A stretch of DNA of 64,000 nucleotides from Deltaproteobacteria bacterium. GTDB taxonomy: Bacteria; UBA10199; JACPAL01. The translations under genes and the position numbers were made by a program. Of the stretch, positions 32,069-64,000 are shown piece after piece (position 1 is the stretch's first letter; every line of letters starts with the position of its first letter). A model generated the notes under the pieces. That model was given only the letters and a program-made list of their open reading frames with translations. It made no database searches and was not told the DNA's origin. The stretch spans positions 673,707 through 737,706 of the forward strand of contig JACPAK010000001.1 of the NCBI GenBank assembly GCA_016180845.1, read 5' to 3'.

Positions 32069-32071
32069 TAT

Positions 32072-32995: not shown

Positions 32996-33083
32996 TTAGA
33001 AACCCTCCAAAGTATTAAGAAGACCATTGGTAAAAATAAAAAAACAAAATCACGTCTATAAACATTATCGGTACCTGAGGTTG

Positions 33084-33101
33084 AAAGTTGCTAGCAACTT
33101 T
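33084..33101. promoter_or_regulatory. 18-bp perfect palindrome AAAGTTGCTAGCAACTTT in the divergent intergenic region. Candidate operator.
   Basis: A perfect inverted repeat lying between the start of the 32995 operon and the start of the TSP3 gene at 33126. Confidence 0.5.
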
Positions 33102-33125
33102 TCTTGTCTGGCGCCGAAACCAGTC

Positions 33126-37594: not shown

Positions 37595-37597
37595 GGG

Positions 37598-44269: not shown

Positions 44270-44292
44270 AGAAGCCTCCTTCTTACTTATTT

Positions 44293-45938: not shown

Positions 45939-46012
45939 AGGACCTCTCTTTCGTGAATTTTTTCAGGGTTGTATCGCTAAAGGGATCTACAGGTCAATAC
46001 TCAATACGGTAG

Positions 46013-48736: not shown

Positions 48737-50913
48737 TAGAGGATAGCCGGGTTTAGAATTTCGTCCAGATTGATCGGAATCGGTTTGTTTTCACGTAACG
48801 CCTCTTCTATTTTAAAGGTAGTCAAACTTGTTGCGACGAGGTCCTCCAAAGGAATCGGGAGAGGGCCATTTTCTCTAAAAGTCTTCAAGACAAGTTTGAT
48901 TTCTTCCTCGTAGCCCATGTTGCGTGCCCATTTTCGCATTCGTCTTGATTTCCCTCCATGGGTTATCGAGGCTTGTTTAAAGTTATCGATGACAGCCACG
49001 CTATTCCTTCCAAAGATTTCTATTCTTTCACGGGGGAAGCTGGCATCACTATTAATGATGTAGGAGATACTTCCAACAGAGCCATTCTCAAAACAAATAG
49101 TGGCAAGCAAATTAGTCCTTTTCTCCGTGGGTGTTGCACCGAAAGTCTTTGCGTAGACAGAAGTTGGTTTGGAGGATGAGAAATAGATCAAAAGGTCTAC
49201 AAAATGGCAAACCTCTGCCAGTGTCATCCCACCTCCCTGCTTCCGGTCAAGGAGCCAATGGTTATCAGGCATTGCACCGACATTGATACGATAGTTTAGC
49301 ATGAGTGGACCTGCGACGGTTTTAAGATGAGACTTTATCCAAGTAGATAAAGGAGAGTATCGTCGATTATAACCTACACATAGCACCGCTGGATGCTTTT
49401 CCCAGGTTTTGACAATCCCTGTTAATTCTTCCTTTGTCAGCGCAAGTGGTTTCTCGACGAACACATGTTTGTTTTGATTGAGGGCATTTTCTACGAGCTG
49501 AGCATGAGAGTCATGTCTTGAAGTAATGAAGACGCCGTTTATTTCCTGCGAGTTCATAATGTCTTCAACATTGCAAGTGGCTTTCATAAAGCCAAATTTG
49601 CGCTGTGCATTATGGGAAGATGTCGATGTGGAATTGGAAACAGTATGGAGAGAGATTTCATCATTCTTTTTTAAAAGAGGCAGAAGGTACGCTTGGGCAA
49701 AGTTGCCTGCTCCAATCCAACCGATACAAGGTTTTTCTCCTTTTTTAGAGACTATTCTTTTGTGATTCAGAGCGCTAGAGGGGGGTAAAACAACCTTCCG
49801 TTCATATTCGAAAATAGCCCCTAAGATAGATGATGATTGAGAAAGAGATTCATAGGCCTGTTTGGATTCTTCAATTCTAAAACGATGTGTAATCAGCGGT
49901 TCAGGATCCAACTTTCCGGTCTGAATAAGATTAATAGCCTCCTGAATATTTCGACCGCTTGTCCAACGGACGTAACTAAACGGATAATCATGGCCATGGA
50001 TGGTATACTCTGGATCATAATATCCAGGGCCAAATGAACGGGCCATCTTCAGTGTGAGTTCCTTTTCCCAATAATCTTTACGCGGGAATTCGGTTGGGAT
50101 GACTCCTGCAACTATGACCTTCCCTTTTTCTCTGCAGTATTTTCCGGCTTGTATCAAAGGGGCTTTATCTTCTGATGAGGCCATAACGAGAACCGCATCG
50201 ACACCGTACCCACCAGAAAAATCTTGAACCTGTTCGACAGATTTTTCAGAGCTTAAGCAGACCCTTTCTGCACCAGCTGTGATGGCACGCCGACAGCGAT
50301 CCTCGTCTATATCGATACCAATGACATGACAACCCGATGCATTGAGGATCTGCGTGGTCAGCAGGCCTAACAAGCCAAGTCCAATGACGGCGACCTTGTC
50401 TCCAATAGAACATTCTGATTGGCGGACCGCTTGGAGTGCAATTGCGATGAGGGGAGCGAAAGCTGCGTGTTCAAATTTCATGTTTGTGGGAATGAGGTGA
50501 CAAAGAAATTGAGGCGCCCACACGACTTCCGCATGACTTCCGATGCCTTCGCCGGCACAGACGACGCTATCTCCTTCTTTGAACCCGGTTACTTCTTGCC
50601 CAACATAAATCACGGTTCCTGAGGAACAATATCCAAGGGGATAGAGGGTATCCAAACGGGTCATGACCTTTTTAAAAGTTGCTATGGGTCCTTCTTGACG
50701 AAGGGTTTGTAAAACTTGTTTTAACTGTTCCGGTCTTTGACGGGCTTTTTGAAAAAAATTGCTTTTGGCCAGCTGAACCGTACCTCTTTCTGTTCCCGGG
50801 CTGATGACCGAGCAGTTATTAGCGACAAGGACACCATTCTCTTTACAAAATGGAATAGGGACTTCCTCTGTAGAAACGTCACCGTTTAAGTAATTTATCA
50901 GGACCTGCTTCAT
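48736..50913 (-). CDS. Fusion protein: zinc-type alcohol dehydrogenase (MDR) N-domain plus Gfo/Idh/MocA oxidoreductase C-domain
   Basis: The N-terminal half has MDR features (GHDYP..., GLGLLGLLT Rossmann motif). The C-terminal half has the Gfo/Idh/MocA Rossmann motif (IGWIGAGNFA) and VFVEKP. Confidence 0.7.
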   Translation of the reverse strand: MKQVLINYLNGDVSTEEVPIPFCKENGVLVANNCSVISPGTERGTVQLAKSNFFQKARQRPEQLKQVLQTLRQEGPIATFKKVMTRLDTLYPLGYCSSGTVIYVGQEVTGFKEGDSVVCAGEGIGSHAEVVWAPQFLCHLIPTNMKFEHAAFAPLIAIALQAVRQSECSIGDKVAVIGLGLLGLLTTQILNASGCHVIGIDIDEDRCRRAITAGAERVCLSSEKSVEQVQDFSGGYGVDAVLVMASSEDKAPLIQAGKYCREKGKVIVAGVIPTEFPRKDYWEKELTLKMARSFGPGYYDPEYTIHGHDYPFSYVRWTSGRNIQEAINLIQTGKLDPEPLITHRFRIEESKQAYESLSQSSSILGAIFEYERKVVLPPSSALNHKRIVSKKGEKPCIGWIGAGNFAQAYLLPLLKKNDEISLHTVSNSTSTSSHNAQRKFGFMKATCNVEDIMNSQEINGVFITSRHDSHAQLVENALNQNKHVFVEKPLALTKEELTGIVKTWEKHPAVLCVGYNRRYSPLSTWIKSHLKTVAGPLMLNYRINVGAMPDNHWLLDRKQGGGMTLAEVCHFVDLLIYFSSSKPTSVYAKTFGATPTEKRTNLLATICFENGSVGSISYIINSDASFPRERIEIFGRNSVAVIDNFKQASITHGGKSRRMRKWARNMGYEEEIKLVLKTFRENGPLPIPLEDLVATSLTTFKIEEALRENKPIPINLDEILNPAIL

Positions 50914-51980
50914 TTTTTTTCGAAATCTGATTCGTGATCTTTGTGTATAAATTGGAATCGACGAGGATCAAGCCCAATCTGAGAGGGATTTGACCAAACT
51001 TCCCAAGATTCTTCAGCCAATCCCGATCTAATCAAGGTTCCCTGAGAGGAGGCTTCTTTTGCAAGCCATTGCATATTCTTTTGAAGATTCTTGGATAAAA
51101 GGGCCAGCATATTAGTCACGAGGATCAGCGGAACAGGTTTTTGGTTTTTTGATTCAAATTGAGAGCGAACAGCCGTCTGGAAAAAGTTGGGGGTGTTGTC
51201 GAGTTTTAGGGGAATTCCCTGGCGTCTTCTCTTCCAGTTGTATCGGGGACCCAAATTTCCCACTTTCCACAAATCCCCAAGGGTCGCTTTGACTCGAGCC
51301 CATTGGTTTTTCACAATAGTGCATGGAACCTCCAGGATGTTCAGGGCCGGCTCATTAGGATAGGCGGTAGGTCTTCTATAATCAAAGGTAGAGGGGTGAT
51401 AAGGGATCTTTGGTGAAATCTCCCAATCGCAGGCACCTACTTCGGGCTTATGACGTTTATGAGAGATGGTATATAATCCAGGGACTGCAGAAAGATCAAT
51501 CTTAACCCCAAGAGAGGCAAGCTGCTTCATTGAAGCCTGTGTCAGGCCATTCCAACCAAAGTAGGAGGTTTGCGGAGAGGTAAGTGTGTTCTTAAAAGCC
51601 TCATGAGATTGAGACATGAGCTCAATCAAATCCCCTGAATCGTCTTGAGACCACTCTCCATTTGTTAGATTCGTTGGATAAAAGAGCCAGCCGATTTCAT
51701 CACCAGAATCCTTCACTTGCTTCCAGAGTTTTTCAAACTTCTTGAGAGGCCATGCTGAGTCGCCATGAGTCATTTCCACATGACGATCTGTACGGATGAG
51801 CCAGGTAAATTTAAATTGGAAGCCCATTTCTTCCCCAATCATTCTTTTCAATTGAAGAGCTGACTGAATACACTTCTCCGTGGAGTTCCAATATCGACTA
51901 TCCTCTCCGGGACTTGAGAGGCGTCCGTTAGATACAGGATCACACAAGAAACAGGCAATAATATAATGTGAGGGATTCAT
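50910..51980 (-). CDS. Hypothetical protein (356 aa)
   Basis: An ORF within the operon. There are no recognisable motifs. Confidence 0.5.
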   Translation of the reverse strand: MNPSHYIIACFLCDPVSNGRLSSPGEDSRYWNSTEKCIQSALQLKRMIGEEMGFQFKFTWLIRTDRHVEMTHGDSAWPLKKFEKLWKQVKDSGDEIGWLFYPTNLTNGEWSQDDSGDLIELMSQSHEAFKNTLTSPQTSYFGWNGLTQASMKQLASLGVKIDLSAVPGLYTISHKRHKPEVGACDWEISPKIPYHPSTFDYRRPTAYPNEPALNILEVPCTIVKNQWARVKATLGDLWKVGNLGPRYNWKRRRQGIPLKLDNTPNFFQTAVRSQFESKNQKPVPLILVTNMLALLSKNLQKNMQWLAKEASSQGTLIRSGLAEESWEVWSNPSQIGLDPRRFQFIHKDHESDFEKK

Positions 51981-52007
51981 GCCTTACGAATTAATTAATA
52001 CCTTAGT

Positions 52008-53474
52008 TTAGGCAGCTGATTCAAGTCGAGGCAAATAAGTATCGCTTGTTTTTGCTGCGTCACCACCGCTGAACTTCCGGAGGACAATATAAAGAAACCG
52101 CTTGAGCCATGTAGGCATCTTGGTCCGAAACTTAACAAAGAGTTCGTAATTTGTATCCAGGAGTAAAAGTATGAAGGCCTCCAAGGGCTTTGTCTTTCTC
52201 ATCACGCGGAAGCGAAACAGCTTCTTTTGCCAAACGATTTCTCGTGGCGTCATATAGGGATATTTCATAATTGACGTGAGCTTGTGCGAAACCGGCATAA
52301 TGTCCGTTGTCATCCAGCCCTGATCACGTGACAGGGTGTGGAGATCCGTCCCCTGGTAAGGCTGAAAAATAGAGACCTGAAGATAGTCTGGCTCGCATTC
52401 ACGATTAACCTTAATCGTCTCCCAAATGTCTCTTTCGGTTTCATAGGGCGATCCGACGATATTATACGAATTCGTCTTAAGTTTGAATTTCTTTGCCGCC
52501 TTGAAAGTTCGGATAATATGCTCATTGCTCATATCACGACGCATTAGTGAGCGCCTCAAGGTCTGACTGCCTGTCTCAATACCCATGTTAAGACCACTAC
52601 ACCCCGCCTTTGCAAGCATCTCCGCCATCTTTTCATCCATCGCCTCGACACGTCCATTGCAGATGAATGGGATTCCACATTCCTTCGGAAATTTTTCTGA
52701 GAATTCTGCAATGAATGGTTTGGCGAGGGCGAAGACGTCATCTTGAAAGCTGACCATTTTAACGCGACCCTTGTATTTTTCCTGAAGATACTTGACCTCA
52801 GCGATGATGTTATCAACGCTTCTAAAACGAACTTGTTTCCTCGATTCCTCGTTAATTTCATGAAGCTTTGGGATAATGCAGTACGTGCATTTGTAGGGGC
52901 AGCCTCGTCCCGCTATCATATCAAGATTTCCACCTGAGGTGTTGATATAGGTCTCCATGTTCCAAAGGTCACGATCAGGGAAGGGAAGTTTGTCAAGATT
53001 CATTTCCAAGAGTGAGACACAATTCGAAACGATCTCCCCATTTTCCTTTTTAAACCAGAAATTAGGGGTGTCATAATAATCGCGCTCGTTCTGCATATGA
53101 TCAAGAAGTTGGCGAACAGACTCCTCTGCTTCTCCAACGCAGGCCATGTCCACTTCGTCATATTGGAGGGAATCTTTTGGTGCGACAGTCGCATGAGAAG
53201 CTCCGAACATGATCTTGATTGATTTGTCTAAGCGCTTAATGGCACGAGCAATTTCCAACGAAAACATGAGGTCACCACTTGTCAGTGAAAACCCGACAAG
53301 ATGAGGCTTGAATTCCTCACATTTGTTAATACAATCTTGAACGGTTCCCCCCCATGTATAATCGATGAGTGCCGTTTCGTGACCAAACTGCTTAACGTAC
53401 GAAGAAATATAGGATAATCCAAGAGAAACATTCTCCTGATGAATCTGATTTGGGTAAACAAAAAGTAATCTCAT
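52008..53474 (-). CDS. B12-binding-domain radical SAM enzyme
   Basis: The N-terminal region is cobalamin-binding-like. The radical-SAM CxxxCxxC motif is present (GRGCPYKCTYC). Confidence 0.8.
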   Translation of the reverse strand: MRLLFVYPNQIHQENVSLGLSYISSYVKQFGHETALIDYTWGGTVQDCINKCEEFKPHLVGFSLTSGDLMFSLEIARAIKRLDKSIKIMFGASHATVAPKDSLQYDEVDMACVGEAEESVRQLLDHMQNERDYYDTPNFWFKKENGEIVSNCVSLLEMNLDKLPFPDRDLWNMETYINTSGGNLDMIAGRGCPYKCTYCIIPKLHEINEESRKQVRFRSVDNIIAEVKYLQEKYKGRVKMVSFQDDVFALAKPFIAEFSEKFPKECGIPFICNGRVEAMDEKMAEMLAKAGCSGLNMGIETGSQTLRRSLMRRDMSNEHIIRTFKAAKKFKLKTNSYNIVGSPYETERDIWETIKVNRECEPDYLQVSIFQPYQGTDLHTLSRDQGWMTTDIMPVSHKLTSIMKYPYMTPREIVWQKKLFRFRVMRKTKPLEAFILLLLDTNYELFVKFRTKMPTWLKRFLYIVLRKFSGGDAAKTSDTYLPRLESAA

Positions 53475-53489
53475 GTCTCCTCCTTGAGG

Positions 53490-54710
53490 TTATAAGTGCC
53501 TAGGCAAAGGTATAACAGCTTCATTTAAAAAAGCGAGTTTTTTTAAATAACTTTCTTCATATCTCTGCCTTTCCACCAAAAGGGTGGATGATGAGGCAAA
53601 CTGATGATTGGAGGGTGAAAGATCGAAGATTTTCTGTTTGCCTTCGCTTCTTAAGATCTTGAGAGAGATTTTAGCGACCTGAACGGGATCAAGCTGTGTG
53701 AGACAGCTTCGCTCAGGGCAAACATTTGAAAAACCGGTATCGAAACAAGGACTACAGGGGAGATCGACCCTGACGGAGTATCCTTTTTCTCCAAAGGGGC
53801 CTGTTTGACGAGGATTCGTTGGACCTATCACGGCAAGCGTCTTGACCCCTTTTGAGGCAGCGAGATGGATCAAAGATGAGTCGTTTCCTATAAAAAGATG
53901 TAATTTCTCAAACAGAAGAGAGCATTCAGTCAGGGAAATATTTGAAACAACTGTAGACCGATCAGGTATCTGGTTCGTAATGCTTTTAAGAATTTCTTCC
54001 TCCGGAGGAGTTCCAAAAATTAGGAAATGGGCATCAATTTCTTTAGATAATTCAAGCGCGACTTGAGAAAATTTTTCCGTTCCCCATCTCCTGGTTTTAT
54101 TCCAGAGAAGATTTCCACCGGGATGAATTCCGATCAGGATCTGATCTTTTGGCAGCGGCAATAAATTTCCCCCGCCATTGGAAGAGGTTTCTAAAATAAA
54201 AGGGAGCGACGACTCAGATATTTTTACTCCGGATGCCCTGAGCAGGTCAAGATTTCTATCAACAAAATGATCCTTCCGTCTGAAAGGGATTATTCTTAAG
54301 AATTTCAGGATTTTTATCCGATTCCACCAGGTTGGCCCAATGTGAATAAATGTCTTTTGAGCACCCAAGAAGCAGGAGAGCAGCATCTTTTTTGATGTTG
54401 TTACCGCAAATGGCCAAAAACAGAGGCCATATTTTTCCCGGCGTATTTTGAGAAGGCAACTGAAAAGCTCGAAGAAATTCTTCCAGAGAGGTTTCCTCTT
54501 GTTCGAAGGGAGCCATTTTTGCCAGGGGAAAACGATAATCTTGTCAATTCTTTTTTCTTTTTTTAGTAAGTCGTCACATCCGTTGGGTGGTGTCAGAAGA
54601 TGAATTTTCGAGAGGGGATAATTTTTTTTCAACACGTGAAGCGAGGGGAGGAAAAAGAGTGAATCTCCGATGCCACACAAGGCGCAGATAAGTATTTTTT
54701 CTGTTTTCAT
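53490..54710 (-). CDS. Glycosyltransferase family 9 (heptosyltransferase-like)
   Basis: CALCGIGDSLFFLP at the N-terminus and the GPTNPRQTGPFG region are typical of RfaF/RfaC-like GT9 enzymes. Confidence 0.7.
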   Translation of the reverse strand: MKTEKILICALCGIGDSLFFLPSLHVLKKNYPLSKIHLLTPPNGCDDLLKKEKRIDKIIVFPWQKWLPSNKRKPLWKNFFELFSCLLKIRREKYGLCFWPFAVTTSKKMLLSCFLGAQKTFIHIGPTWWNRIKILKFLRIIPFRRKDHFVDRNLDLLRASGVKISESSLPFILETSSNGGGNLLPLPKDQILIGIHPGGNLLWNKTRRWGTEKFSQVALELSKEIDAHFLIFGTPPEEEILKSITNQIPDRSTVVSNISLTECSLLFEKLHLFIGNDSSLIHLAASKGVKTLAVIGPTNPRQTGPFGEKGYSVRVDLPCSPCFDTGFSNVCPERSCLTQLDPVQVAKISLKILRSEGKQKIFDLSPSNHQFASSSTLLVERQRYEESYLKKLAFLNEAVIPLPRHL

Positions 54711-56143
54711 GATGAGGAACTTCTCGACTCGTCTAGAAAAGATTGAACCTGTTCAGCCATGCGTCTCCCTGACTGTCCATCTAGAAAGGTTGCTTGCTCA
54801 AGAATCATCTTCTTTCGCTCATTTTCATTCAGTCGAGGATTTTTAAGAAATTGATTAATAGCACTGATTAATTCAGTCTTGTTTTCCACAAGGCGTATAC
54901 CCCCAGACTTTACGAGTGGTTGGTAATGAGTATAGTCGTAAAATCGTCGTACCGACTCTAAATAAGGTTTTTGATCTTGGCCATCAAAGGCGATACAAAT
55001 AGTCGGCTTGCCAAAAATAGCGGCATCGAGGCTGACGGTTGACCAAACGTTAATAACGAGATCAGCTGCGAAAAGAAGTTCTGCAAAGTGTTCGGTGTCT
55101 CCGTTGCCATTTTGCCAACCTGACGAATTGGATAACGCTGCATAAGCAATACTGGGTTGATCGAAGAGGACATCAGGACGATCCTGAGCCATTTTCTGGA
55201 TTGATGATGTATCATGCCCCGGATGGTTGCGAATCATGAGATAGGATGGCATCTGAATGTCTCTTTGGTCAAACGCTTCAAGAAGAATTGAGATAATCTC
55301 GTCTTGATGGGGGAGGACAACAGGATTGCCGGCGGCATAAAGGATCAATTTCTTCGAAGGATCAAGATGATATCGTGCGAAAAAGCTCTCTCTCGACCTT
55401 GTCCCATTGCGAATATAAGAATCAAACTGGGGGATGCCAGAAATAGAGATATCATTTGGCGAATATCCATAAAATCGGATCAGCTGATCTTTTAGAATTT
55501 CATTCCATACCAGGATTTTGTTAAAGCGGACAGGGAACGTACGGCCGCAGCGCGGCTTTTTGGAGCCAACTCCCGCCATCCCTGTTTTTGTTGTGAGTGT
55601 ATCCCAGCTGTGGATACCTACGATGATTGGAACGTTTTGCTTCTTAGCAAAGCAAGCAAGGAAGATTTCTTGTAAGGCTATAGAATGCGTTAGCATAATC
55701 GCATCAGGGGAATATTGCTGAAAGAGCTGGGTGTAGTAACGACTGCGAGTCATCCAGAGCTGTAGAGAATGAAGCAAAGCAAGGAAACGAGGACGGGCAA
55801 AAAACCAGCCGAAGATCATTCGTATTTGGTAAATCCAAGGATTCGTCCTGCGAAGAGATTTCTTCATCAAATCAAGAGAGACAATGTTCATTCGTTGCGT
55901 GAAATAATAGGACTCTAGGCAATCAAGTATCTTCCGAAAAACTTTATAGAATAAGGAATAGTCGGATTGGGGCATTTCGATAGAGACATGAGACCCATGA
56001 AACTCTTTGCGGAAAGAGGGGTCGTTAGCCAATGGAGTCAGAACAACAAGCCGAACTTTGCTTCTGAGGATCGCGAACATGTCCGATCTTAGATAGTTTC
56101 TGGCGGACATCCCATAAGGTAAACTTAAGAAGAGAGTTTTCAT
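54707..56143 (-). CDS. Hypothetical GT-B-like transferase (TagF/KpsS-like). Paralog of 59361..60776.
   Basis: It shares N-terminal (SLPYGMSARN) and C-terminal (FDG...PY..SVR..YD..HYQP) blocks with the paralog. Confidence 0.5.
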   Translation of the reverse strand: MKTLFLSLPYGMSARNYLRSDMFAILRSKVRLVVLTPLANDPSFRKEFHGSHVSIEMPQSDYSLFYKVFRKILDCLESYYFTQRMNIVSLDLMKKSLRRTNPWIYQIRMIFGWFFARPRFLALLHSLQLWMTRSRYYTQLFQQYSPDAIMLTHSIALQEIFLACFAKKQNVPIIVGIHSWDTLTTKTGMAGVGSKKPRCGRTFPVRFNKILVWNEILKDQLIRFYGYSPNDISISGIPQFDSYIRNGTRSRESFFARYHLDPSKKLILYAAGNPVVLPHQDEIISILLEAFDQRDIQMPSYLMIRNHPGHDTSSIQKMAQDRPDVLFDQPSIAYAALSNSSGWQNGNGDTEHFAELLFAADLVINVWSTVSLDAAIFGKPTICIAFDGQDQKPYLESVRRFYDYTHYQPLVKSGGIRLVENKTELISAINQFLKNPRLNENERKKMILEQATFLDGQSGRRMAEQVQSFLDESRSSSS

Positions 56144-56151
56144 GTTGCTCT

Positions 56152-57156
56152 TTAGTGTCGAGAAAGAAACTTCGGATCGAGGAGCTTTGGATTGATCTGC
56201 TCCGGAAGAATAAAGAACACATTCATTTTATTATAGTATTTACAGTTTTCGCGAGGTCTCAGAAGGCGACCCCGGCGGTCAGGATAAGAGGCGACATAAC
56301 CGAAAGGTTGCAACCGGTCATGGATGATACCCTCTTTTTTGTTTGAACATTCGATAATCAATGCCTTCGGTCTCCAACCGTTCGTATTTAAAAGACTCAG
56401 CATTCCCTCGACAACCTCGACTTCATATCCTTCAACGTCAATTTTGACGACGGTGTCTTCAGCAAGTGTGAGAAAAGTATCTTTCTTTAAGTGAAGGAGA
56501 AGAGACGACATGTCCTTGGTCTCAACCTGAATTTCGGTTTTTACGGAGAATTTTCTCTGAATAAGATCCTTAGAAAAGGAACGGTTTCGGTCGACATAGC
56601 GTTCCCAGCGTTGCAGACTTCCGCCGCCGTCATTCAGAGGATTTCTATGAAAAGTGGCGGTACCCGTCTGATTGGAGATACCAATGTTTAAGGCCAAAAT
56701 ATTATCAAATCTATTTTCCTGAAGATTCCTTTTTAAAGATTCATAATTTCGGGGATCTGCTTCTAAGGAAAGAACCTTACCTGTCGGCCCAACCAGGGAA
56801 GAGGTGGCCAACGAATAGTAACCGTGATGAGCCCCAACATCGATAAAACAATCACCCGGATTTAAAATTAAAGGTAGCTTAAGGGTAATTTCGGGTTCGT
56901 AAATTTTCGAAAAATAGAGATGTCTTTGGCTTTTTTCATTGAGGTTTAGGCGCATGCTAAATTGCTCAAAAAATCTTCTCTGGGTCAAAAAAGGGCGTTG
57001 ATTTGGTTTTCGATAGGGATGAGTCAATCTAAGAATGAATGCCCCCAACCAATGTCCTAAAGGGAAAGGGAGGCGAACAATGAAAAAGAGAACAAGTGTA
57101 CTCAGATGCTTTTTGAAAAACTGAAAAAACATTTCCTTAGAGGCAGTAACCGTCAC
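56152..57156 (-). CDS. FkbM-family methyltransferase
   Basis: DVGAHHGYYS is the FkbM/SAM-binding motif. Confidence 0.7.
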   Translation of the reverse strand: MTVTASKEMFFQFFKKHLSTLVLFFIVRLPFPLGHWLGAFILRLTHPYRKPNQRPFLTQRRFFEQFSMRLNLNEKSQRHLYFSKIYEPEITLKLPLILNPGDCFIDVGAHHGYYSLATSSLVGPTGKVLSLEADPRNYESLKRNLQENRFDNILALNIGISNQTGTATFHRNPLNDGGGSLQRWERYVDRNRSFSKDLIQRKFSVKTEIQVETKDMSSLLLHLKKDTFLTLAEDTVVKIDVEGYEVEVVEGMLSLLNTNGWRPKALIIECSNKKEGIIHDRLQPFGYVASYPDRRGRLLRPRENCKYYNKMNVFFILPEQINPKLLDPKFLSRH

Positions 57157-58333
57157 ATTTGGAACAAGGATAAAGACTATTTTTGAGACCCTCTAGATGT
57201 TTTTGCCGATAAGAATTCATGACTTCTCCTTGCCAAATCGAAGCGATCGTCGTTTCCCCCGAAATCCTTCCTGGAGAGAGGAGGCTTTTATAGTCTGAAT
57301 CACAGGGGTTTATTTGGCCATCCCACCATACGTAGAGCCTTTCCCAGAAAAGACTGCATGGATCTGTTGATTCAACAAGGTCCAGATTATAGATGTCGAG
57401 CCGTTGCATACCTCCTTTGACAGCGAATTCATCAACAAGATCACTCCAAAAAGCATGTGCCTTCTCTGTATCTTGCTGTGGGTTAATGAGGACCATTGAA
57501 ATTCGCGTTCTCACCCGCGAGTGCGGAAATTCGTTGGCTCGGATCTGATTAAATTGGCGAATGTTTGATACAATCTGATTAAAATCAGCACCAATTCGAA
57601 TCGCTTCGAATTCCTCTTTATGACTCGAGTCGACCGAAAAAATGAGCACATTAGGTTCGATTTCAAGAAGCTTTCTAGCCCGTTCGGCCGTTAGCTTGGT
57701 GGCGTTTGTGTTGATCTTGATATCCAAAATCCCTTTTTTCTTGGTATAAGCAACCATTTCCGTGAAGCGCGGATGAAGAAGAGGTTCTCCTCGGCTGGCA
57801 AGAACGACTGAGGCGCAATGTGCCTCTGCAGCTTCGTCGATGATTCGCTGATAGAGGTTGAAGTCCATCAAGCCCATTTGCTTCTTATCTCGAGTAAACG
57901 TTTCATCGGCTTGGAAGCACATCACACATCGGAGATTACAAATGCTTGTAGGCTCCACTGCGAGGACAATAGGGAACGAATTCAGCTTTCGTTCTCGAGG
58001 GTAGTTTTTAAATTTATATCGGTAAACCAGATAACGCAGGACATCGAAATCCGAATCGTACTGACCGGCATTAAGAATCTCAGTTGAAGAGAAGGTAGTT
58101 GGTTTGTCCAGAGGAGAGCGACCTTCATGATTATTAGACGGGTCAATGCGCTTTAAGTATTTCGCAATCTCTTCTAGTTCCTCGAGTGTGCATTTGTAAT
58201 CGCGCTCGGTCCTTTGTGCAAGTGCCTGGGCAACGATACGTTGTAGACGCGATAACAGAGGACCATGGGACTCTTGTTGATAGCGTGCGCAGGAAAAGGT
58301 GTGTTTTTTCGCGTAGTTATAATCTATCTGCAT
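57137..58333 (-). CDS. Radical SAM enzyme with a C-terminal Cys-rich (SPASM/twitch-like) region
   Basis: CNLRCVMC is the radical-SAM cluster motif. Additional C-terminal cysteines are present (CDSDYK...CSKCDGYC). Confidence 0.75.
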   Translation of the reverse strand: MQIDYNYAKKHTFSCARYQQESHGPLLSRLQRIVAQALAQRTERDYKCTLEELEEIAKYLKRIDPSNNHEGRSPLDKPTTFSSTEILNAGQYDSDFDVLRYLVYRYKFKNYPRERKLNSFPIVLAVEPTSICNLRCVMCFQADETFTRDKKQMGLMDFNLYQRIIDEAAEAHCASVVLASRGEPLLHPRFTEMVAYTKKKGILDIKINTNATKLTAERARKLLEIEPNVLIFSVDSSHKEEFEAIRIGADFNQIVSNIRQFNQIRANEFPHSRVRTRISMVLINPQQDTEKAHAFWSDLVDEFAVKGGMQRLDIYNLDLVESTDPCSLFWERLYVWWDGQINPCDSDYKSLLSPGRISGETTIASIWQGEVMNSYRQKHLEGLKNSLYPCSKCDGYCL

Positions 58334-59349
58334 GAACCCTCCGCCTTCAGGTAGTCTTCAAAGAAGATTTTTTTTGAATTACGGTTCGCCTCCAGCGCTG
58401 CGTGCACGAAGGCAACAGCTCGTAAGCCTTCTGAATACCCAGTCTCTGGTTTTTGGCCTTCTGCAATACATCTCAGAAATTCGTCAGATTCCCCGGTTAA
58501 AAGATCGTCTTCTTCAACTTCTTGACTGTGGAGGGGAGAGGGCTTCCGATCAATGTCTCTCCCAATCCGATAATAGACACGGTTCTCAAAACCATCCCAC
58601 CAGGCAATGCCTTCAGTCCCCGCCACCCACACCCTAGAGAAAGAAGGAACAATGTAGTGATTTGCGACAGAGGCTGTGGCACCCGAATTCATTTCGATGA
58701 GGTGACTTGTCGTGTCCTCCGCCTCAGTGGCCGCATAAAGTTTGTGAACCCTACTTTGGACAGTCTTAACAGAACCTCCCAGATATTCAAGCACGTCGAA
58801 GGCGTGTGTTCCTAGCATTGAAAGTGGGCCTCCAGGGCAAAGAGAGGCGTTCCAACGCCACTGATTGGGTTGAAAGTTAAATCCTCCGCCGTGAGAGAAG
58901 TGGATTTCAAAGCTCACGGGCGATCCCAATTGACCACTGGCAAGCATTTTTTTTAGAAGCCGGATGCCTTTTTTTCTTCGGTAGTTATGCCCCACCATAA
59001 AAACCTTTTGGAAGTTGGCCAGATCTTTTTGTAAGGCGAGACCTTCCTGAAGTCTTAAGACCATCGGTTTTTCGACGAAAACATGTTTTCCCGATCTGAT
59101 CGCTGCTTGAATCTGTTCAAAGTGGAGAGGGGTTGGCGTTGAAATGACGACCGCTTCTACGTTGAGGTCTTCTAAAATTTCCTCAAAACTTCGGGATGGC
59201 TTGCAACCTAGATTTTTCGCCGCTTCTTCACAAACTAGCTTGTCTGGATGGAAACAACGTGAGAGCACAGCCTTAGGGTTCTTCAGGAATGATCTTGCTC
59301 TTTTTTCTCCGAAGCCTCGTACTCCCACAAGTCCAATGGATATAGTCAT
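58324..59349 (-). CDS. Gfo/Idh/MocA-family oxidoreductase
   Basis: SIGLVGVRGFG and HVFVEKPM. Confidence 0.8.
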   Translation of the reverse strand: MTISIGLVGVRGFGEKRARSFLKNPKAVLSRCFHPDKLVCEEAAKNLGCKPSRSFEEILEDLNVEAVVISTPTPLHFEQIQAAIRSGKHVFVEKPMVLRLQEGLALQKDLANFQKVFMVGHNYRRKKGIRLLKKMLASGQLGSPVSFEIHFSHGGGFNFQPNQWRWNASLCPGGPLSMLGTHAFDVLEYLGGSVKTVQSRVHKLYAATEAEDTTSHLIEMNSGATASVANHYIVPSFSRVWVAGTEGIAWWDGFENRVYYRIGRDIDRKPSPLHSQEVEEDDLLTGESDEFLRCIAEGQKPETGYSEGLRAVAFVHAALEANRNSKKIFFEDYLKAEGSCR

Positions 59350-59360
59350 ATTAGTTTTGC

Positions 59361-60776
59361 TTAGTTTGCCTGATTTATCAAAGTCTGGACAACTCGATTC
59401 GCCGCTTTCCCATCCGTACCAAATGGATCTAGAGTGCAGACAAGCTGTTTGCGATTCTCTGAATCTTGCGAGGGGTCCTCGAGATAACTCCTGATCTGTT
59501 CTTCAAGCTCAAGGGGTGATTTGGCGAGACGAACAGCCCCGCTATTCATGACCGGTTGGTAGTGAGAGAAATCATAATGCATTCGAACTGATGAATAATA
59601 GGGGGCATTTTGATATCCATCAAAACCGATACAAATAATCGGTTTGTTGAGAACTGCCGCATCCAGTGAGGTCGTTGAGGCTACGTTGATCAATATATCA
59701 CAGTGATAGATTGATTCTGCGAGATCTTGTTGGTCGGACTTGTTCCAACCTCCTCGATGTCGGAATGCCGAATAAGCTGGACTTGGGTTTTGTACATAAA
59801 TTTCTGGAAATCGGGATTTTAGTTCTTCGAGAAAAGACATCTTCTCTCCTGGATGAGCGCGTATCAAAAGCTGGACAGGGTCTCGAAAAGAATTGGAGCG
59901 GAGAATTTTAATCAACATTTCCAAGACCTCTTCCTGCCGAGGCATGAGATTAAGAGAGGGTAACGCAAAGAGAATTAATTTTTTGGAGGGGTCCGCCCCT
60001 ATTGATTGAAAAAATGAAATTCGTGAAGAGAATGAGCCATTGCAATAATGGTCCATCTGGGGGATGCCGACAACAGAGGCCTGATTTTCTTGATAACCGT
60101 AGTAGCTTCGGAGCTCTTCTTTTTGAAGAAAGTTCCAGACAATGAGATGATCATATTGGACAGGGGGTAATCTGCCTGGTTTTCTAGAAAACGGAAGACG
60201 AAAACCTGATTTGGTCGTTAAATTATCCCAACTGTGAACCATGCCGACCAAAGGAATTCCCATCTGCTTCACACTAAAAGCTAGGGGATATTCTTCCAAG
60301 GCGAGGATATGGGTCTGAAAGACGAGATCAGGCTTCTTCTCCCTCAAGATTTTCAGGAAATGATCCTTTGTCGCAAGACATTCTTGGAGTTTCCTGAGAC
60401 AGAAAACGAGGTAAGGAGAACGAACAGTGATGGCTCCGATCACGTGGCGGATAAAATAACTGAGCCGATTTTCTTCCTTGAGGGTCTGGGCGAGCAGCTG
60501 AAAGGTGTGGATCTTGCTCTTTTGTGTAAAATAGGGTCCCTCCACATAGTCGAGCAGAAAGCGGTAAGCCTTAAAAAAGATATTATAATTCTTCGGAAAA
60601 TCTAGGAGATCAACACCTGGTCTTGAAAATTCGCCAAGAAAACTACGATCCTGATAAAAAGGGGTTAATAGAGTGATGTCAAAGACCCGAGTCAGTTCTT
60701 CGTAGATTTGAGAACGCAAGATATTCCGTGCGGACATTCCATAGGGGAGGCTGATCAGTATTTTTTTTCTATTCAT
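59361..60776 (-). CDS. Hypothetical GT-B-like transferase, paralog of 54707..56143
   Basis: It has the same conserved blocks as 54707..56143. Confidence 0.5.
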   Translation of the reverse strand: MNRKKILISLPYGMSARNILRSQIYEELTRVFDITLLTPFYQDRSFLGEFSRPGVDLLDFPKNYNIFFKAYRFLLDYVEGPYFTQKSKIHTFQLLAQTLKEENRLSYFIRHVIGAITVRSPYLVFCLRKLQECLATKDHFLKILREKKPDLVFQTHILALEEYPLAFSVKQMGIPLVGMVHSWDNLTTKSGFRLPFSRKPGRLPPVQYDHLIVWNFLQKEELRSYYGYQENQASVVGIPQMDHYCNGSFSSRISFFQSIGADPSKKLILFALPSLNLMPRQEEVLEMLIKILRSNSFRDPVQLLIRAHPGEKMSFLEELKSRFPEIYVQNPSPAYSAFRHRGGWNKSDQQDLAESIYHCDILINVASTTSLDAAVLNKPIICIGFDGYQNAPYYSSVRMHYDFSHYQPVMNSGAVRLAKSPLELEEQIRSYLEDPSQDSENRKQLVCTLDPFGTDGKAANRVVQTLINQAN

Positions 60777-60779
60777 TTT

Positions 60780-62099
60780 TTACCGAAAGGATGTTGCCGA
60801 ACCCAACAGGCTTTTCAACAAGTTTTTGTAAGCTTCCCAATCGCTTTTCCTAGGGGCAATCATAAATTGCCATCGAAAGTTGGCTCCTCGTAAAAAGAGG
60901 ATGCCTAATCCAAAAGAACAGACGGTAAAAGAGACGAGAGAAACGAAGGCAGCACCCACGATTCCATGGGAAGGAATCAAAAGTAGATTCAAGACAACAT
61001 TGATCATGAGCGAGATCGAGTACATGATTAAAGAAAGCCCTGGCTTTCCTTTGCCAAGGTTGTGGTTATGAAGCAAAAGGGCGATGCCAAAAATGGACCA
61101 GGCAATGACCTGGAGATGGAAGGAAGGAAGTAGAGGGATGTACGCCTTCATAAATCCCCTTATCGTTATTTCAACCACCAACGAAAAAGGGATGAGTAAT
61201 AGCGCTAGAATGGTTATCGAATGTCGACAGGTGTCTGCGGTCAAGACCTTGGCCTTTTCGGCCGTTTCTGCCCGGGCTGCCTTGACATAGAGAAGGGAAG
61301 CTATCGCCGTCGGGATCTTGTAAATGATCTGGGCAAAGGTCGTTGACAGCGTGTAAAGACCAACCTCTCGTGGCGTGAGAAATAGCCCAATCAGAAGAAT
61401 ATCTGCGCGATATTGTGCGAAGTGAATCACCGCCGGAAGATAGGTGTTGATGCCGTAACGAATCAGTGTTTTTTGAATTGGAAAATCAAAGTGAAAATTC
61501 AGATACCCACTTCGATAAAGGATGATCCCTCCACAAAGACTTCCCACGCAATACGCAATTGTCGGTCCCATAATAATGAGGAAGAGATTCTGGCCAAACC
61601 AAAGAATTGATATGAGGATCAATACCTGTCCGAGTAAAGGAGATCCAAAGTTCAAGATATTGTAGGCCCATATCTTTTCGGCAAAAAGCATGTTTTTCAT
61701 GAAGGCGCGAAAGAGGAAGAGGGGAGGGATGCTCAGGAGAACCGCCCAAAAGATTGGTTGATCAACAACCATCCCCTTCAACAACTGTTTCACATAAACC
61801 CCTTTGAAGACCAAAAAGGTGCCGATGGCGATGACACTGAAACAAAGAACGAGGAAGCAGGCATTAAAGAAAACAACACCAATTTTTTTCTGATTCTGAC
61901 TTCCAATATAGGTTGAGCCGTCATCGACTCCGAGCCGGAAAAATTTTTCCGCGTATTGGGGAATCAACTGAATCAGGGTGACTACCCCGAACAGAGAAGG
62001 GCCAAGAAGAGTTGCATAGACGCTCTTAATGACGAGATGAGTCCCTTCTAAGACAACGTCAGCGGAGAGAATCGAGATGACTTGTTTGGCGAATTTCAT
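60780..62099 (-). CDS. wzx: Polysaccharide biosynthesis protein / Wzx-type flippase (MOP superfamily)
   Basis: A 439-aa protein with 12 or more transmembrane helices in a glycan cluster, next to the polymerase. Confidence 0.65.
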   Translation of the reverse strand: MKFAKQVISILSADVVLEGTHLVIKSVYATLLGPSLFGVVTLIQLIPQYAEKFFRLGVDDGSTYIGSQNQKKIGVVFFNACFLVLCFSVIAIGTFLVFKGVYVKQLLKGMVVDQPIFWAVLLSIPPLFLFRAFMKNMLFAEKIWAYNILNFGSPLLGQVLILISILWFGQNLFLIIMGPTIAYCVGSLCGGIILYRSGYLNFHFDFPIQKTLIRYGINTYLPAVIHFAQYRADILLIGLFLTPREVGLYTLSTTFAQIIYKIPTAIASLLYVKAARAETAEKAKVLTADTCRHSITILALLLIPFSLVVEITIRGFMKAYIPLLPSFHLQVIAWSIFGIALLLHNHNLGKGKPGLSLIMYSISLMINVVLNLLLIPSHGIVGAAFVSLVSFTVCSFGLGILFLRGANFRWQFMIAPRKSDWEAYKNLLKSLLGSATSFR

Positions 62100-63432: not shown

Positions 63433-63434
63433 CA

Positions 63435-63986: not shown

Positions 63987-64000
63987 GGGATTTGGAAATT

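What the first reader, a model, noticed from the sequence alone, without database searches (positions are those of the whole stretch)
52008..58333. Glycan cluster containing two distinct radical-SAM enzymes (B12-binding and SPASM-like) plus an FkbM methyltransferase
Radical-SAM enzymes are uncommon in O-antigen or capsule loci. A B12-binding radical SAM enzyme suggests C-methylation, or another radical modification, of a sugar. The SPASM-like enzyme suggests a radical epimerisation or dehydration. Together with the FkbM methyltransferase and the formyltransferase, this implies a heavily decorated and possibly novel sugar.
Basis: partly seen in the sequence, partly recalled or inferred. Interest (0 to 1): 0.6.

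Follow-up and report, generated by a model that had tools for sequence, protein, structure and literature searches.

The report
Two radical-SAM sugar-tailoring modules in glycan locus
A surface-polysaccharide gene cluster of an uncultured deltaproteobacterium carries two uncharacterised radical-SAM enzymes whose relatives, in many bacteria and archaea including the abundant marine SAR11 and Thaumarchaeota, almost always sit in sugar-biosynthesis clusters, so they probably perform radical chemistry on cell-surface sugars that nobody has yet described.

Summary
Window 52008-58333 (minus strand) encodes a B12-binding radical SAM enzyme, a GT9 glycosyltransferase, a TagB/TagF-like transferase, an FkbM methyltransferase and a second radical SAM enzyme. 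All lie in a tightly packed Wzx/Wzy-type polysaccharide operon of at least 38 kb.

One correction: the second enzyme is not a full SPASM protein. It is a BtrN-type "twitch" enzyme with one four-cysteine auxiliary cluster and a family-specific N-terminal helical domain.

Comparative genomics supports a glycan role and excludes a RiPP or cofactor pathway. In 52 related genome loci the twitch enzyme lies directly beside either a GFO/IDH/MocA oxidoreductase (33) or an aminotransferase (9), never both. Half of those loci also carry NeuB and CMP-sugar synthetase genes. Relatives of the B12 enzyme lie beside recognisable glycan genes in 47 of 58 informative loci, and are linked to GT9 in 13 of 78 loci against 0 of 52 twitch loci.

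Most likely mechanism (inferred): the twitch enzyme oxidises a sugar carbinol to a ketone, which GFO then reduces. The B12 enzyme makes a cobalamin-dependent radical modification of a GT9-linked sugar, most likely C-methylation.

Neither family reaches the cut-off of any NCBIfam model, and I found no paper characterising either. Verdict: a new variant of a known kind, of moderate to high interest.

The parts
57137..58333 (-). Twitch-type radical SAM enzyme (398 aa). It has an N-terminal helical domain of about 115 aa, a CX3CX2C core (C132/C136/C139) and a BtrN-like four-cysteine auxiliary-cluster domain (C326/C344/C390/C393).
   Evidence: Pfam Radical_SAM plus SPASM. Invariant cysteines in alignment A1. 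The A1 profile matches BtrN at E=5e-14, with the twitch domain aligned through its C-terminal cysteines including the CxxC. The model has pLDDT 87 and a TM-score of 0.74-0.78 on BtrN.
58324..59349 (-). GFO/IDH/MocA NAD(P) oxidoreductase, overlapping the start of the twitch gene by 10 nt. This is the partner subfamily of the twitch enzyme.
   Evidence: Pfam. A same-strand adjacent GFO is present in 33 of 52 related loci, with gaps mostly -25 to +18 nt. The adjacent GFOs resemble this gene (mean 72 bits) more than the other GFO in the window at 40545-41624 (mean 33 bits).
56152..57156 (-). FkbM-family SAM methyltransferase, directly downstream of the twitch gene. The public gene call starts it at 57132.
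   Evidence: Pfam and TIGR01444, both above cut-off. A natural FkbM-twitch radical SAM fusion protein exists (P0306). Gene call.
54707..56143 (-). TagB/TagF-like GT-B transferase, a distant relative of the BFO_1060 nonulosonic-acid transferase family.
   Evidence: Pfam Glyphos_transf, 42 bits. NF046086 gives 78 bits, below its cut-off of 200. This homology cluster occurs in 11 of 52 twitch loci against 1 of 78 B12 loci. BFO_1060 function from PMC5420450.
59361..60776 (-). Second TagB/TagF-like transferase, a paralogue (37% identity) of 54707-56143. The two paralogues flank the GFO-twitch-FkbM trio.
53490..54710 (-). GT9 (heptosyltransferase-family) glycosyltransferase, 15 nt upstream of the B12 radical SAM gene.
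   Evidence: Pfam Glyco_transf_9, 75 bits. GT9 lies within 7 kb in 13 of 78 B12 loci against 0 of 52 twitch loci, p=0.0016.
52008..53474 (-). B12-binding-domain radical SAM enzyme (488 aa), with cluster motif C192/C196/C199 and a C-terminal helical tail.
   Evidence: Pfam. Best NCBIfam hit is HpnJ at 150 bits, below its cut-off of 578. The A2 profile matches AprD4 at 3e-37 over the core only, while the N-terminal domain aligns to the cobalamin enzymes TsrM, OxsB, CysS and TokK. The model has pLDDT 89; best structures are AprD4, MgmA and TsrM.
50910..51980 (-). Conserved hypothetical protein (356 aa) between the B12 radical SAM gene and the bi-domain oxidoreductase.
   Evidence: No Pfam, NCBIfam or PDB match. 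A homologue occupies the same position in L001.
48736..50913 (-). Bi-domain oxidoreductase (ADH_zinc_N plus GFO_IDH_MocA, 725 aa). It follows the B12 radical SAM gene in only a minority of related loci.
   Evidence: Pfam. The same arrangement occurs in L001, L003 and L158, but not in the 61-63% identical orthologue loci L089, L169 and L170.
36554..64000 (-). The enclosing minus-strand polysaccharide operon, which continues past the window end. It encodes a PMT_2 transferase (truncated by the window end), Wzy, a Wzx flippase, formyltransferase-like, WecG and Bac_transf genes, NAD epimerases, transaldolase, an HddA-like kinase, a GmhA-like isomerase and ManC.

Best explanation
The region holds two separate radical-SAM sugar-tailoring modules inside one Wzx/Wzy-type surface-polysaccharide operon.

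Module 1 is TagB-like transferase, GFO oxidoreductase, twitch radical SAM, FkbM methyltransferase, TagB-like transferase. The twitch enzyme abstracts a hydrogen atom from a sugar carbinol. As in BtrN, it passes the second electron to its four-cysteine auxiliary cluster, giving a keto-sugar. The translationally coupled GFO enzyme reduces the ketone, so the net result is inversion or relocation of a hydroxyl. In other organisms an aminotransferase takes that place and makes an amine. FkbM then methylates the product, and a TagB-like transferase adds it to the growing glycan.

Module 2 is GT9 followed by the B12 radical SAM enzyme. This cobalamin-type enzyme modifies an unactivated carbon of the sugar handled by the GT9 transferase, probably a heptose made by in-cluster genes. 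C-methylation is the most likely reaction.

Shown: the gene content, the domain and cysteine architecture, and the conserved neighbourhoods. Inferred: the substrates, the order of steps and the chemistry.
For: Operon and glycan context.

Twitch architecture:
- Only 3+4 cysteines are invariant.
- The family profile matches BtrN at 5e-14, including the twitch cysteines.
- The fold matches BtrN with TM-score 0.74-0.78.
- BtrN performs a two-electron oxidation, and its fully cysteine-ligated auxiliary cluster is the likely electron acceptor (PMC9012708).

Partner pattern of the twitch enzyme:
- In 52 loci from bacteria and archaea it is directly adjacent to GFO (33) or an aminotransferase (9), never both. 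Ten have neither, three of them at contig ends.
- The adjacent GFOs form their own subtype, matching the window's partner gene.
- Natural fusions join a twitch radical SAM domain to a 2-hydroxyacid dehydrogenase, a CMP-sugar synthetase or FkbM.

Neighbourhood contrast:
- GFO: 35/52 twitch loci against 0/78 B12 loci.
- NeuB: 26/52 against 0/78.
- TagB-like transferase: 11/52 against 1/78.
- GT9: 0/52 against 13/78.

B12 enzyme:
- The N-terminal domain aligns with genuine cobalamin enzymes, whereas AprD4 aligns only over the core.
- 47 of 58 informative loci carry glycan genes, and tandem paralogues are frequent.
- The cluster encodes a transaldolase (above cut-off) plus HddA-like and GmhA-like proteins and ManC.
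Against: - No biochemical data exist for either family.
- The window and 10 kb upstream lack NeuB, CTP_transf_3 and NeuC, although half of the twitch loci have them. The substrate of module 1 here is therefore unknown.
- A radical SAM dehydrogenase working next to an NAD(P) oxidoreductase looks redundant. The same partner pattern fits elimination chemistry equally well: aminotransferase then lyase as in DesI/DesII, or dehydratase then reductase as in AprD4/AprD3.
- For the B12 enzyme, the best family hit is the non-methylase HpnJ and the best structure is the dehydratase AprD4. Cobalamin binding cannot be read from sequence.
- The HddA-like and GmhA-like scores are below the curated cut-offs, and no GmhB was found.
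- The two locus sets come from different collections (genomes and metagenomes). My gene calling and clustering were crude, so the counts are approximate.
- The fusion proteins belong to a sister group about 35% identical to the window protein.
Confidence: 0.5

Rival explanations
1. Both radical SAM enzymes, or the twitch enzyme alone, carry out radical elimination rather than oxidation or methylation. This would be a 1,2-diol dehydratase or amino-alcohol ammonia-lyase, as in AprD4 or DesII. A partner reductase (GFO, or the ADH-GFO bi-domain enzyme) would then reduce the resulting ketone, giving a deoxy sugar.
For: - AprD4 is the best solved relative of the B12 enzyme by sequence (3e-37) and by fold (TM-score 0.71/0.76).
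- AprD4 works with the NADPH reductase AprD3 in C3 deoxygenation (PMC5461906).
- DesII is among the best matches of the twitch enzyme.
- An aminotransferase upstream of the twitch gene (7 of 9 cases) and a GFO downstream of it (28 of 35 cases) match the order of steps in DesI-DesII and AprD4-AprD3.
- B12 radical SAM followed by the ADH-GFO oxidoreductase recurs in L001, L003 and L158.
Against: - The twitch family keeps a fully cysteine-ligated auxiliary cluster, which suits electron acceptance in an oxidation. To my knowledge AprD4 and DesII work without such a cluster.
- AprD4's N-terminal domain does not align with that of the B12 family, whereas those of genuine cobalamin enzymes do.
- NCBIfam scores are far below cut-off: AprD4 95.6 against 500, DesII 34 against 450.
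- The closest B12 orthologue loci (L089, L169, L170) have no oxidoreductase partner.
Confidence: 0.25
2. The twitch enzyme is a self-sufficient radical epimerase, like HygY or NeoN. It abstracts a hydrogen atom and returns one to the opposite face, with no ketone intermediate and no need for GFO.
For: HygY is described as a twitch radical SAM epimerase acting on a sugar (title cited in the reference list of PMC10991966). NeoN uses Cys249 as its hydrogen donor (PMC10991966).
Against: No cysteine other than the 3+4 cluster ligands is invariant in the family, so the usual cysteine hydrogen donor is missing. The tight, mutually exclusive pairing with GFO or an aminotransferase argues for a ketone intermediate.
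Confidence: 0.1
3. The B12 enzyme catalyses a cobalamin-dependent rearrangement such as an HpnJ-like ring contraction, producing a carbocyclic or five-membered sugar unit.
For: HpnJ is the best-scoring curated family (150 bits, aligned over residues 44-419). HpnJ is proposed to contract the glucosamine ring of a hopanoid glycoside (PMC9204698).
Against: The score is far below the HpnJ cut-off of 578. No hopanoid genes are nearby. HpnJ's own activity is only proposed.
Confidence: 0.1
4. The radical SAM genes serve a non-glycan pathway, such as RiPP maturation, cofactor synthesis or sulfatase maturation, and merely sit inside the glycan locus.
For: SuiB, a peptide maturase, has the lowest Foldseek E-value for the twitch model. 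RiPP and cofactor maturases appear among the weak NCBIfam hits.
Against: - Intergenic gaps are at most 27 nt within the flagged range and at most about 75 nt across the operon, so a precursor-peptide gene does not fit.
- The N-terminal domain is all-helical, and Pfam finds no PqqD or RRE domain.
- Only one auxiliary cluster is present, against two in SPASM maturases and anSME.
- Glycan genes accompany the homologues in 48 of 48 and 47 of 58 informative loci.
Confidence: 0.03

Closest known systems
BtrN (2-deoxy-scyllo-inosamine dehydrogenase, butirosin pathway; PDB 4M7T)
   Same: Both have a radical SAM core followed by a twitch domain with one auxiliary [4Fe-4S] cluster bound by four cysteines. 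The cysteine spacing is equivalent: 18, 46 and 3 residues here, and HMMER aligns BtrN's last three cysteines onto it. BtrN has the best target-normalised fold match. Both act in a carbohydrate or cyclitol context, and the BtrN step is followed by an aminotransferase, as in 9 related loci.
   Different: Identity is only 18-22%. The window protein carries an extra N-terminal helical domain of about 115 aa. It is encoded in cell-surface glycan or nonulosonic-acid clusters, not an aminoglycoside cluster. Its usual partner is a GFO oxidoreductase. Its activity is untested.
AprD4/AprD3 (radical SAM 1,2-diol dehydratase plus NADPH reductase, apramycin C3 deoxygenation; PDB 6FD2)
   Same: AprD4 is the best sequence and fold match to the B12 enzyme's radical SAM core and C-terminal part. 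Both have a sugar substrate. A radical SAM enzyme paired with a reductase resembles both modules here.
   Different: The NCBIfam AprD4 model scores 95.6 against a cut-off of 500. AprD4's N-terminal domain does not align, whereas those of cobalamin enzymes do. The oxidoreductase partner is absent from most related loci.
Cobalamin-dependent radical SAM C-methyltransferases acting on sugars (GenK, MoeK5) and the related HpnJ/Fom3 group
   Same: Both have an N-terminal B12-binding domain followed by a radical SAM core, in a glycoside-tailoring context. HpnJ is the best curated-family hit. HpnJ, Fom3 and MoeK5 co-cluster in a published similarity network (PMC9204698).
   Different: No curated model reaches its cut-off. 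Those enzymes belong to antibiotic or lipid pathways, not Wzx/Wzy glycan loci.
DesI/DesII (aminotransferase plus radical SAM deaminase, desosamine pathway) and HygY/NeoN (radical SAM sugar epimerases)
   Same: These are radical SAM enzymes acting on sugars, with an aminotransferase partner (DesII) or a twitch domain (HygY).
   Different: DesII scores 34 bits against a cut-off of 450. No conserved hydrogen-donor cysteine is present for HygY/NeoN-type epimerisation.
Tannerella forsythia BFO_1060/Tanf_01245 nonulosonic-acid transferases (TagB-like)
   Same: The two TagB/TagF-like transferases flanking the twitch trio hit this family's model. The same homology cluster accompanies the twitch enzyme in 11 of 52 loci, many of which carry NeuB and CMP-sugar synthetase genes.
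   Different: The score is 78 bits against a cut-off of 200. No NeuB or CMP-sugar synthetase gene lies in or near the window, so the donor sugar here is unknown.

Membership tests
Radical SAM superfamily (both enzymes) | CX3CX2C motif binding the SAM-cleaving [4Fe-4S] cluster, and a Pfam PF04055 match above the gathering score | tested here: met
   C192-x3-C196-x2-C199 with 91 bits; C132-x3-C136-x2-C139 with 64 bits. The cysteines are invariant in A1 and A2.
B12-binding (class B) radical SAM enzymes | N-terminal cobalamin-binding Rossmann-type domain (PF02310) fused to the radical SAM core | tested here: met
   PF02310 scores 64 bits against a cut-off of 32. The N-terminal domain aligns with TsrM, OxsB, CysS and TokK. 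Fold matches include MgmA, TsrM, OxsB, CysS and TokK.
B12-binding (class B) radical SAM enzymes | Actual cobalamin binding and use (methyl transfer or rearrangement) | not testable with these tools
   Requires purified protein. AprD4 shows that a similar fold can work without cobalamin (my own knowledge).
AprD4 family diol dehydratase (NF033070) | Score at or above the curated cut-off of 500 bits | tested here: not met
   95.6 bits.
HpnJ (TIGR03471) | Score at or above 577.6 bits, and a hopanoid gene context | tested here: not met
   150.5 bits. No hpn genes are in the window.
Twitch-domain radical SAM enzymes (BtrN type) | A truncated SPASM domain binding a single auxiliary [4Fe-4S] cluster through four cysteines | tested here: met
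   Only C326, C344, C390 and C393 are invariant beyond the core motif. The domain aligns with BtrN's twitch domain at E=8.5e-6 for that domain alone. TM-score on BtrN is 0.74-0.78.
SPASM radical SAM maturases (two auxiliary clusters) | A seven- or eight-cysteine motif binding two auxiliary clusters, usually with a peptide substrate and an RRE domain | tested here: not met
   Four conserved C-terminal cysteines. The N-terminal domain is all-helical. There is no space for a precursor gene.
NF033640 N_Twi_rSAM (twitch domain-containing radical SAM protein) | Score at or above 170 bits | tested here: not met
   78.9 bits. All 16 family members hit this model, but the best of them (E=1.2e-22) is close to the window protein's 3.9e-22, i.e. 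about 79 bits and well below 170.
DesII (TIGR04426) | Score at or above 450 bits | tested here: not met
   34 bits.
Radical SAM alcohol dehydrogenase activity (BtrN-like function) | SAM-dependent two-electron oxidation of a carbinol to a ketone | not testable with these tools
   Inferred only, from the auxiliary cluster and the GFO or aminotransferase partners.
FkbM methyltransferase family (TIGR01444 / PF05050) | Score above the curated cut-off | tested here: met
   86.9 bits against 37.7; 62.6 bits against 22.7.
GT9 heptosyltransferases | A PF01075 match, and an equivalog-level match to LPS heptosyltransferase I, II or III | tested here: inconclusive
   PF01075 scores 74.9 bits against 22, so family membership is met. 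The best equivalog is heptosyltransferase II at 85.6 bits against 134.6, which is not met. The donor sugar is therefore not established.
BFO_1060 nonulosonic-acid transferase family (NF046086) | Score at or above 200 bits | tested here: not met
   78.4 bits.

The most novel reading that the evidence does not exclude
The translationally coupled twitch radical SAM and GFO pair may be a widespread, undescribed enzyme couple that remodels higher-carbon surface sugars, namely nonulosonic acids and heptoses. One possibility is that it acts on their exocyclic polyol side chain. The pair occurs in SAR11, marine Thaumarchaeota, Dehalococcoidia, CPR bacteria and DPANN archaea. It would then define a new branch of nonulosonic-acid and heptose biosynthesis. 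In parallel, the glycan-cluster B12 radical SAM family would install C-methyl or rearranged carbons in cell-surface polysaccharides, a kind of modification so far characterised mainly in natural-product (antibiotic and hopanoid) pathways.
Probability: 0.4. Interest if true: 0.75.

Novelty: new variant of a known kind. Interest (0 to 1): 0.6.

Why it matters
Radical SAM sugar chemistry (dehydrogenation, deoxygenation, epimerisation, C-methylation) has been worked out almost entirely in antibiotic pathways. Here the same enzyme classes appear as conserved parts of cell-surface glycan loci. The twitch family has about 300 clusters at 50% identity (E<=1e-30) among 1.8 billion representative proteins. 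It occurs in some of the most abundant marine microbes, usually next to nonulosonic-acid genes.

If these enzymes do what their architecture suggests, environmental bacteria and archaea make surface sugars of unknown structure. That bears on phage and grazer recognition, on marine dissolved organic carbon, and on the annotation of thousands of 'radical SAM protein' genes.

The mutually exclusive pairing with a GFO oxidoreductase or an aminotransferase gives a concrete and cheap biochemical test.

Tried and rejected
- **RiPP, cofactor or sulfatase-maturase reading:** rejected. There is no room for a precursor gene, no RRE domain, a single auxiliary cluster, and consistent glycan neighbourhoods.
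- **Full SPASM assignment:** rejected in favour of twitch.
- **The bi-domain ADH-GFO oxidoreductase as obligatory partner of the B12 enzyme (an AprD3 analogue):** weakened. It follows the B12 gene in L001, L003, L158 and the window, but not in the 61-63% identical orthologue loci L089, L169 and L170.
- **A nonulosonic-acid pathway in the window itself:** no NeuB, CTP_transf_3 or NeuC homologue was found in the window or 10 kb upstream.
- **FkbM as a general partner of either radical SAM enzyme:** not supported. FkbM-like genes were found near only a few B12 loci (L122, L128, L148) and in none of the loci that carry the twitch gene. One natural FkbM-twitch fusion exists.
- **Literature searches:** none turned up a characterised member of either family in O-antigen, capsule, heptose or nonulosonic-acid pathways. 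The only near hit is an unstudied 'radical SAM metalloprotein' in the C. jejuni HS:19 capsule region.
- **The 356-aa hypothetical protein:** no family or structure match.
- **Promoter and terminator scan:** not completed.
- **Direct comparison with GenK, Fom3 and MoeK5:** not possible, because no tool available here could supply their sequences.

Full report
**What is there.** The window matches a contig of a 'Deltaproteobacteria bacterium' MAG; the B12 protein is 100% identical to a protein on an 804-kb contig. From about 36.5 kb to the window end runs a single minus-strand operon of genes that overlap or are a few nucleotides apart. Reading in the direction of transcription, from high to low coordinates (Pfam and NCBIfam; public gene calls):
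- a PMT_2 glycosyltransferase, truncated by the window end
- Wzy-like polymerase (62059-63432)
- Wzx flippase (60780-62099)
- TagB/TagF-like transferase (59361-60776)
- GFO/IDH/MocA oxidoreductase (58324-59349)
- radical SAM with a SPASM-type domain (57137-58333)
- FkbM methyltransferase (56152-57156)
- second TagB-like transferase (54707-56143)
- GT9 transferase (53490-54710)
- B12-binding radical SAM (52008-53474)
- a 356-aa protein with no family match (50910-51980)
- ADH_zinc_N plus GFO bi-domain oxidoreductase (48736-50913)
- an alpha/alpha-toroid protein
- a formyltransferase-like protein
- WecG/TagA and a NAD epimerase/dehydratase
- Bac_transf, the initiating transferase
- transaldolase and a second NAD epimerase
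- HddA-like GHMP kinase and a second GFO
- GmhA-like SIS protein and a flippase-like membrane protein
- ManC and a DAO-family (FAD-dependent) oxidoreductase (36554-37594).

Ten kilobases upstream of the window the operon continues with RmlC-, RmlB- and RmlA-like genes, a methyltransferase, a GT2 and a DegT aminotransferase.

**The 'SPASM-like' enzyme is a BtrN-type twitch enzyme.** I aligned 16 relatives of about 40-55% identity from Bacillus, Streptomyces, Nitrospirae, CPR bacteria, Altiarchaeales and others. Only seven cysteines are invariant: the three of the SAM cluster, plus C326, C344, C390 and C393. That means one auxiliary cluster, not the two of SPASM.

A profile of the family finds BtrN as the best solved relative (E=5e-14). 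HMMER aligns the C-terminal domain onto BtrN's twitch domain through its last three cysteine ligands, including the CxxC. An AlphaFold model (pLDDT 87) covers BtrN with a TM-score of 0.74-0.78. SuiB has the lowest Foldseek E-value, and DesII follows. The first 115 or so residues form a family-specific all-helical domain, which is not the winged-helix RRE of peptide maturases. No NCBIfam model reaches its cut-off for any of the 16 members. An exhaustive search of 1.84 billion representative proteins finds 302 clusters at E<=1e-30.

**What the twitch enzyme travels with.** A scan of one genome per species returned 78 loci. I called ORFs, clustered them with BLASTP and named the recurrent clusters with Pfam. 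Counts below exclude the window; 52 loci carry a clear orthologue.
- GFO lies within 7 kb in 35 loci, and NeuB in 26.
- CTP_transf_3 lies within 7 kb in 19 loci, and DegT in 19.
- A TagB-like transferase of the same homology cluster as the window's two copies is present in 11.
- All 48 loci with enough neighbours carry sugar-nucleotide genes.
- The immediate neighbour of the twitch gene is a same-strand GFO in 33 loci, with gaps mostly -25 to +18 nt. It is an aminotransferase in 9. It is never both. It is neither in 10, three of which are at contig ends.
- The adjacent GFOs resemble the window's partner gene (mean 72 bits) more than the window's other GFO (mean 33 bits). Non-adjacent GFOs show the reverse, 43 against 98 bits.
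- Natural fusions join a twitch radical SAM domain to a D-2-hydroxyacid dehydrogenase, a CMP-sugar synthetase or an FkbM methyltransferase. FkbM is the gene immediately downstream in the window.

The hosts include Pelagibacterales (SAR11), Nitrosopumilus and Nitrosopelagicus, Dehalococcoidia, Elusimicrobia, Planctomycetes, CPR bacteria and DPANN archaea. The TagB-like transferases are distant relatives of the T. forsythia BFO_1060 family. Knock-outs of that family lose the terminal pseudaminic or legionaminic acid derivative (PMC5420450).

**Mechanism for module 1 (inferred).** BtrN oxidises a carbinol to a ketone, and its fully ligated auxiliary cluster is the likely acceptor of the second electron (PMC9012708). 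An aminotransferase then acts on the ketone.

The same auxiliary-cluster architecture is found here. The either/or pairing with a ketoreductase-type enzyme or an aminotransferase fits a keto-sugar intermediate best. That intermediate would be reduced, giving net inversion of a hydroxyl, or aminated. In the window it would then be methylated by FkbM and transferred by a TagB-like enzyme.

The main rival is elimination chemistry. This could be aminotransferase then ammonia-lyase, as in DesI/DesII. Or it could be diol dehydratase then reductase, as in AprD4/AprD3 (PMC5461906). Either would give a deoxy sugar. Gene order fits this rival slightly better, but the conserved auxiliary cluster fits it less well.

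A stand-alone HygY/NeoN-type epimerase is unlikely. No extra conserved cysteine is available as hydrogen donor (NeoN Cys249, PMC10991966).

The substrate in this window is unresolved. Half of the related loci are nonulosonic-acid clusters, but the window and its upstream 10 kb have no NeuB, CMP-sugar synthetase or NeuC. Two related loci (L035, L052) combine the pair with heptose-type genes, as the window does.

**The B12 enzyme.** Its N-terminal domain passes the Pfam B12-binding threshold. A 20-sequence family profile aligns that domain with the cobalamin enzymes TsrM, OxsB, CysS and TokK. AprD4 is the top hit (3e-37) but aligns only over the radical SAM core and C-terminal part. The model (pLDDT 89) matches AprD4 (TM-score 0.71/0.76), then the glutamine C-methylase MgmA, TsrM, OxsB, CysS and TokK. 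The best curated family is HpnJ at 150 bits, far below its cut-off. No equivalog is met.

Its homologues are almost all metagenomic and unnamed.
- The five loci with the closest homologues fetched by protein look-up (48-76% identity) are all glycan clusters.
- Among 78 metagenomic and MAG loci, 47 of 58 with enough neighbours contain glycosyltransferase or sugar-nucleotide genes that I could name.
- Tandem paralogues are common, with two or three copies in 11 loci.
- A distant twitch or SPASM radical SAM gene is directly adjacent in 9 loci.
- GT9 lies within 7 kb in 13 of 78 loci, against 0 of 52 twitch loci (p=0.0016).

The window shows the same juxtaposition, with GT9 15 nt upstream. It also encodes a transaldolase (above cut-off), HddA-like and GmhA-like proteins (below cut-off) and ManC. 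This suggests a GDP-heptose route, although no GmhB was seen.

I therefore read module 2 as cobalamin-type radical tailoring of the GT9-linked sugar. C-methylation, as in GenK or MoeK5, is the most likely reaction (about 0.4). AprD4-like dehydration is next (about 0.25), and an HpnJ-like rearrangement follows (about 0.1; PMC9204698). The bi-domain oxidoreductase downstream recurs in only three other loci and is absent from the 61-63% identical orthologue loci, so it is not a reliable partner.

**Rivals excluded.** A RiPP, cofactor or sulfatase-maturase role is very unlikely, for four reasons:
- the genes are packed with gaps of 27 nt or less in the flagged range;
- there is no RRE domain;
- only one auxiliary cluster is present;
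- both families keep glycan company across phyla.

**Novelty.** Searches of the held literature found no characterised member of either family in O-antigen, capsule, heptose or nonulosonic-acid biosynthesis. The nearest mention is an unstudied radical SAM gene in the C. jejuni HS:19 capsule region. The enzyme classes are known from antibiotic and hopanoid pathways. What is new is the context (primary cell-surface glycans), the family architecture (N-terminal domain plus twitch) and the conserved GFO or aminotransferase pairing. I rate it a new variant of a known kind.

**Caveats.**
- All functional statements are inferences.
- My ORF calling and single-linkage clustering are crude.
- The two locus sets come from different collections.
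- Many loci are MAG fragments.
- The fusion proteins belong to a sister group about 35% identical to the window protein.

Noticed in passing
window 38000-64000 versus 1-36000: G+C falls to 0.43-0.46 across the glycan operon, against 0.48-0.55 in the housekeeping part of the window (DnaB, acyl-CoA dehydrogenase, ThiF, peroxiredoxin). This is typical of horizontally exchanged surface-glycan loci.
   Followed up: no
window 43568-44269, 41575-42618, 39956-40570, 37598-39004: A transaldolase (TIGR02134, above cut-off) sits inside the glycan operon with an HddA-like kinase, a GmhA-like SIS protein and ManC. This looks like a dedicated sedoheptulose-7-P to GDP-heptose supply line, but no GmhB phosphatase was seen. 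L035, a Dehalococcoidia MAG, has a similar set of transaldolase, HldE-like kinase and the twitch-GFO pair.
   Followed up: partly
window 46774-50913: A trio of genes whose joint role is unknown: a bi-domain ADH_zinc_N-GFO oxidoreductase, an alpha/alpha-toroid protein with weak GH88, C5-epimerase and squalene-cyclase-like hits, and a formyltransferase-like protein with an intact catalytic motif. The toroid homology cluster also appears next to twitch or B12 genes in L054, L055 and L148.
   Followed up: no
L006, L017 (Bacillus) and L008 (Streptomyces): In these cultured genera the twitch enzyme lies in a block of NeuB, CTP_transf_3 and a class I/II aminotransferase, adjacent to NRPS, thioesterase, carrier-protein and ATP-grasp genes and close to mobile-element genes. 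This may be a natural-product cluster that uses an ulosonic-acid-like building block.
   Followed up: no
P0297, P0299, P0306 (representative-library proteins): Natural fusions of a twitch radical SAM domain with a D-2-hydroxyacid dehydrogenase, a CMP-sugar synthetase-type cytidylyltransferase and an FkbM methyltransferase. P0241 (829 aa) has a 450-aa N-terminal extension with no family match.
   Followed up: partly
L005 (JGI contig Ga0452210_002142): One glycan cluster carries three B12 radical SAM paralogues plus a SPASM or twitch radical SAM gene, together with STT3 and PMT_2 oligosaccharyltransferase-like genes and several class I methyltransferases. L105, L142 and L147 also carry three B12 paralogues.
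   Followed up: no
window 63432-63986 and 62059-63666: The 184-aa ORF at the window edge is the C-terminal part of a 437-aa PMT_2 gene that runs past the window end. The Wzy gene starts at 63432, not at the longest-ORF GTG at 63666.
   Followed up: yes
window 27091-35768: Just outside the glycan operon lie a 913-aa protein with seven thrombospondin type-3 repeats, a 1245-aa protein with a weak, below-cut-off OmpA-like hit and a weak TPR-like hit, and a protein with a weak TPR hit. Another protein with an OmpA domain and a weak TSP_3 hit is at 15630-17597. They may form a cell-surface or outer-membrane structure.
   Followed up: no
B12 radical SAM, residues about 405-470 (window 52065-52260): The conserved C-terminal tail forms four amphipathic helices of lower model confidence. 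They might anchor the enzyme at the membrane, which would suit action on a lipid-linked glycan rather than a nucleotide sugar.
   Followed up: no
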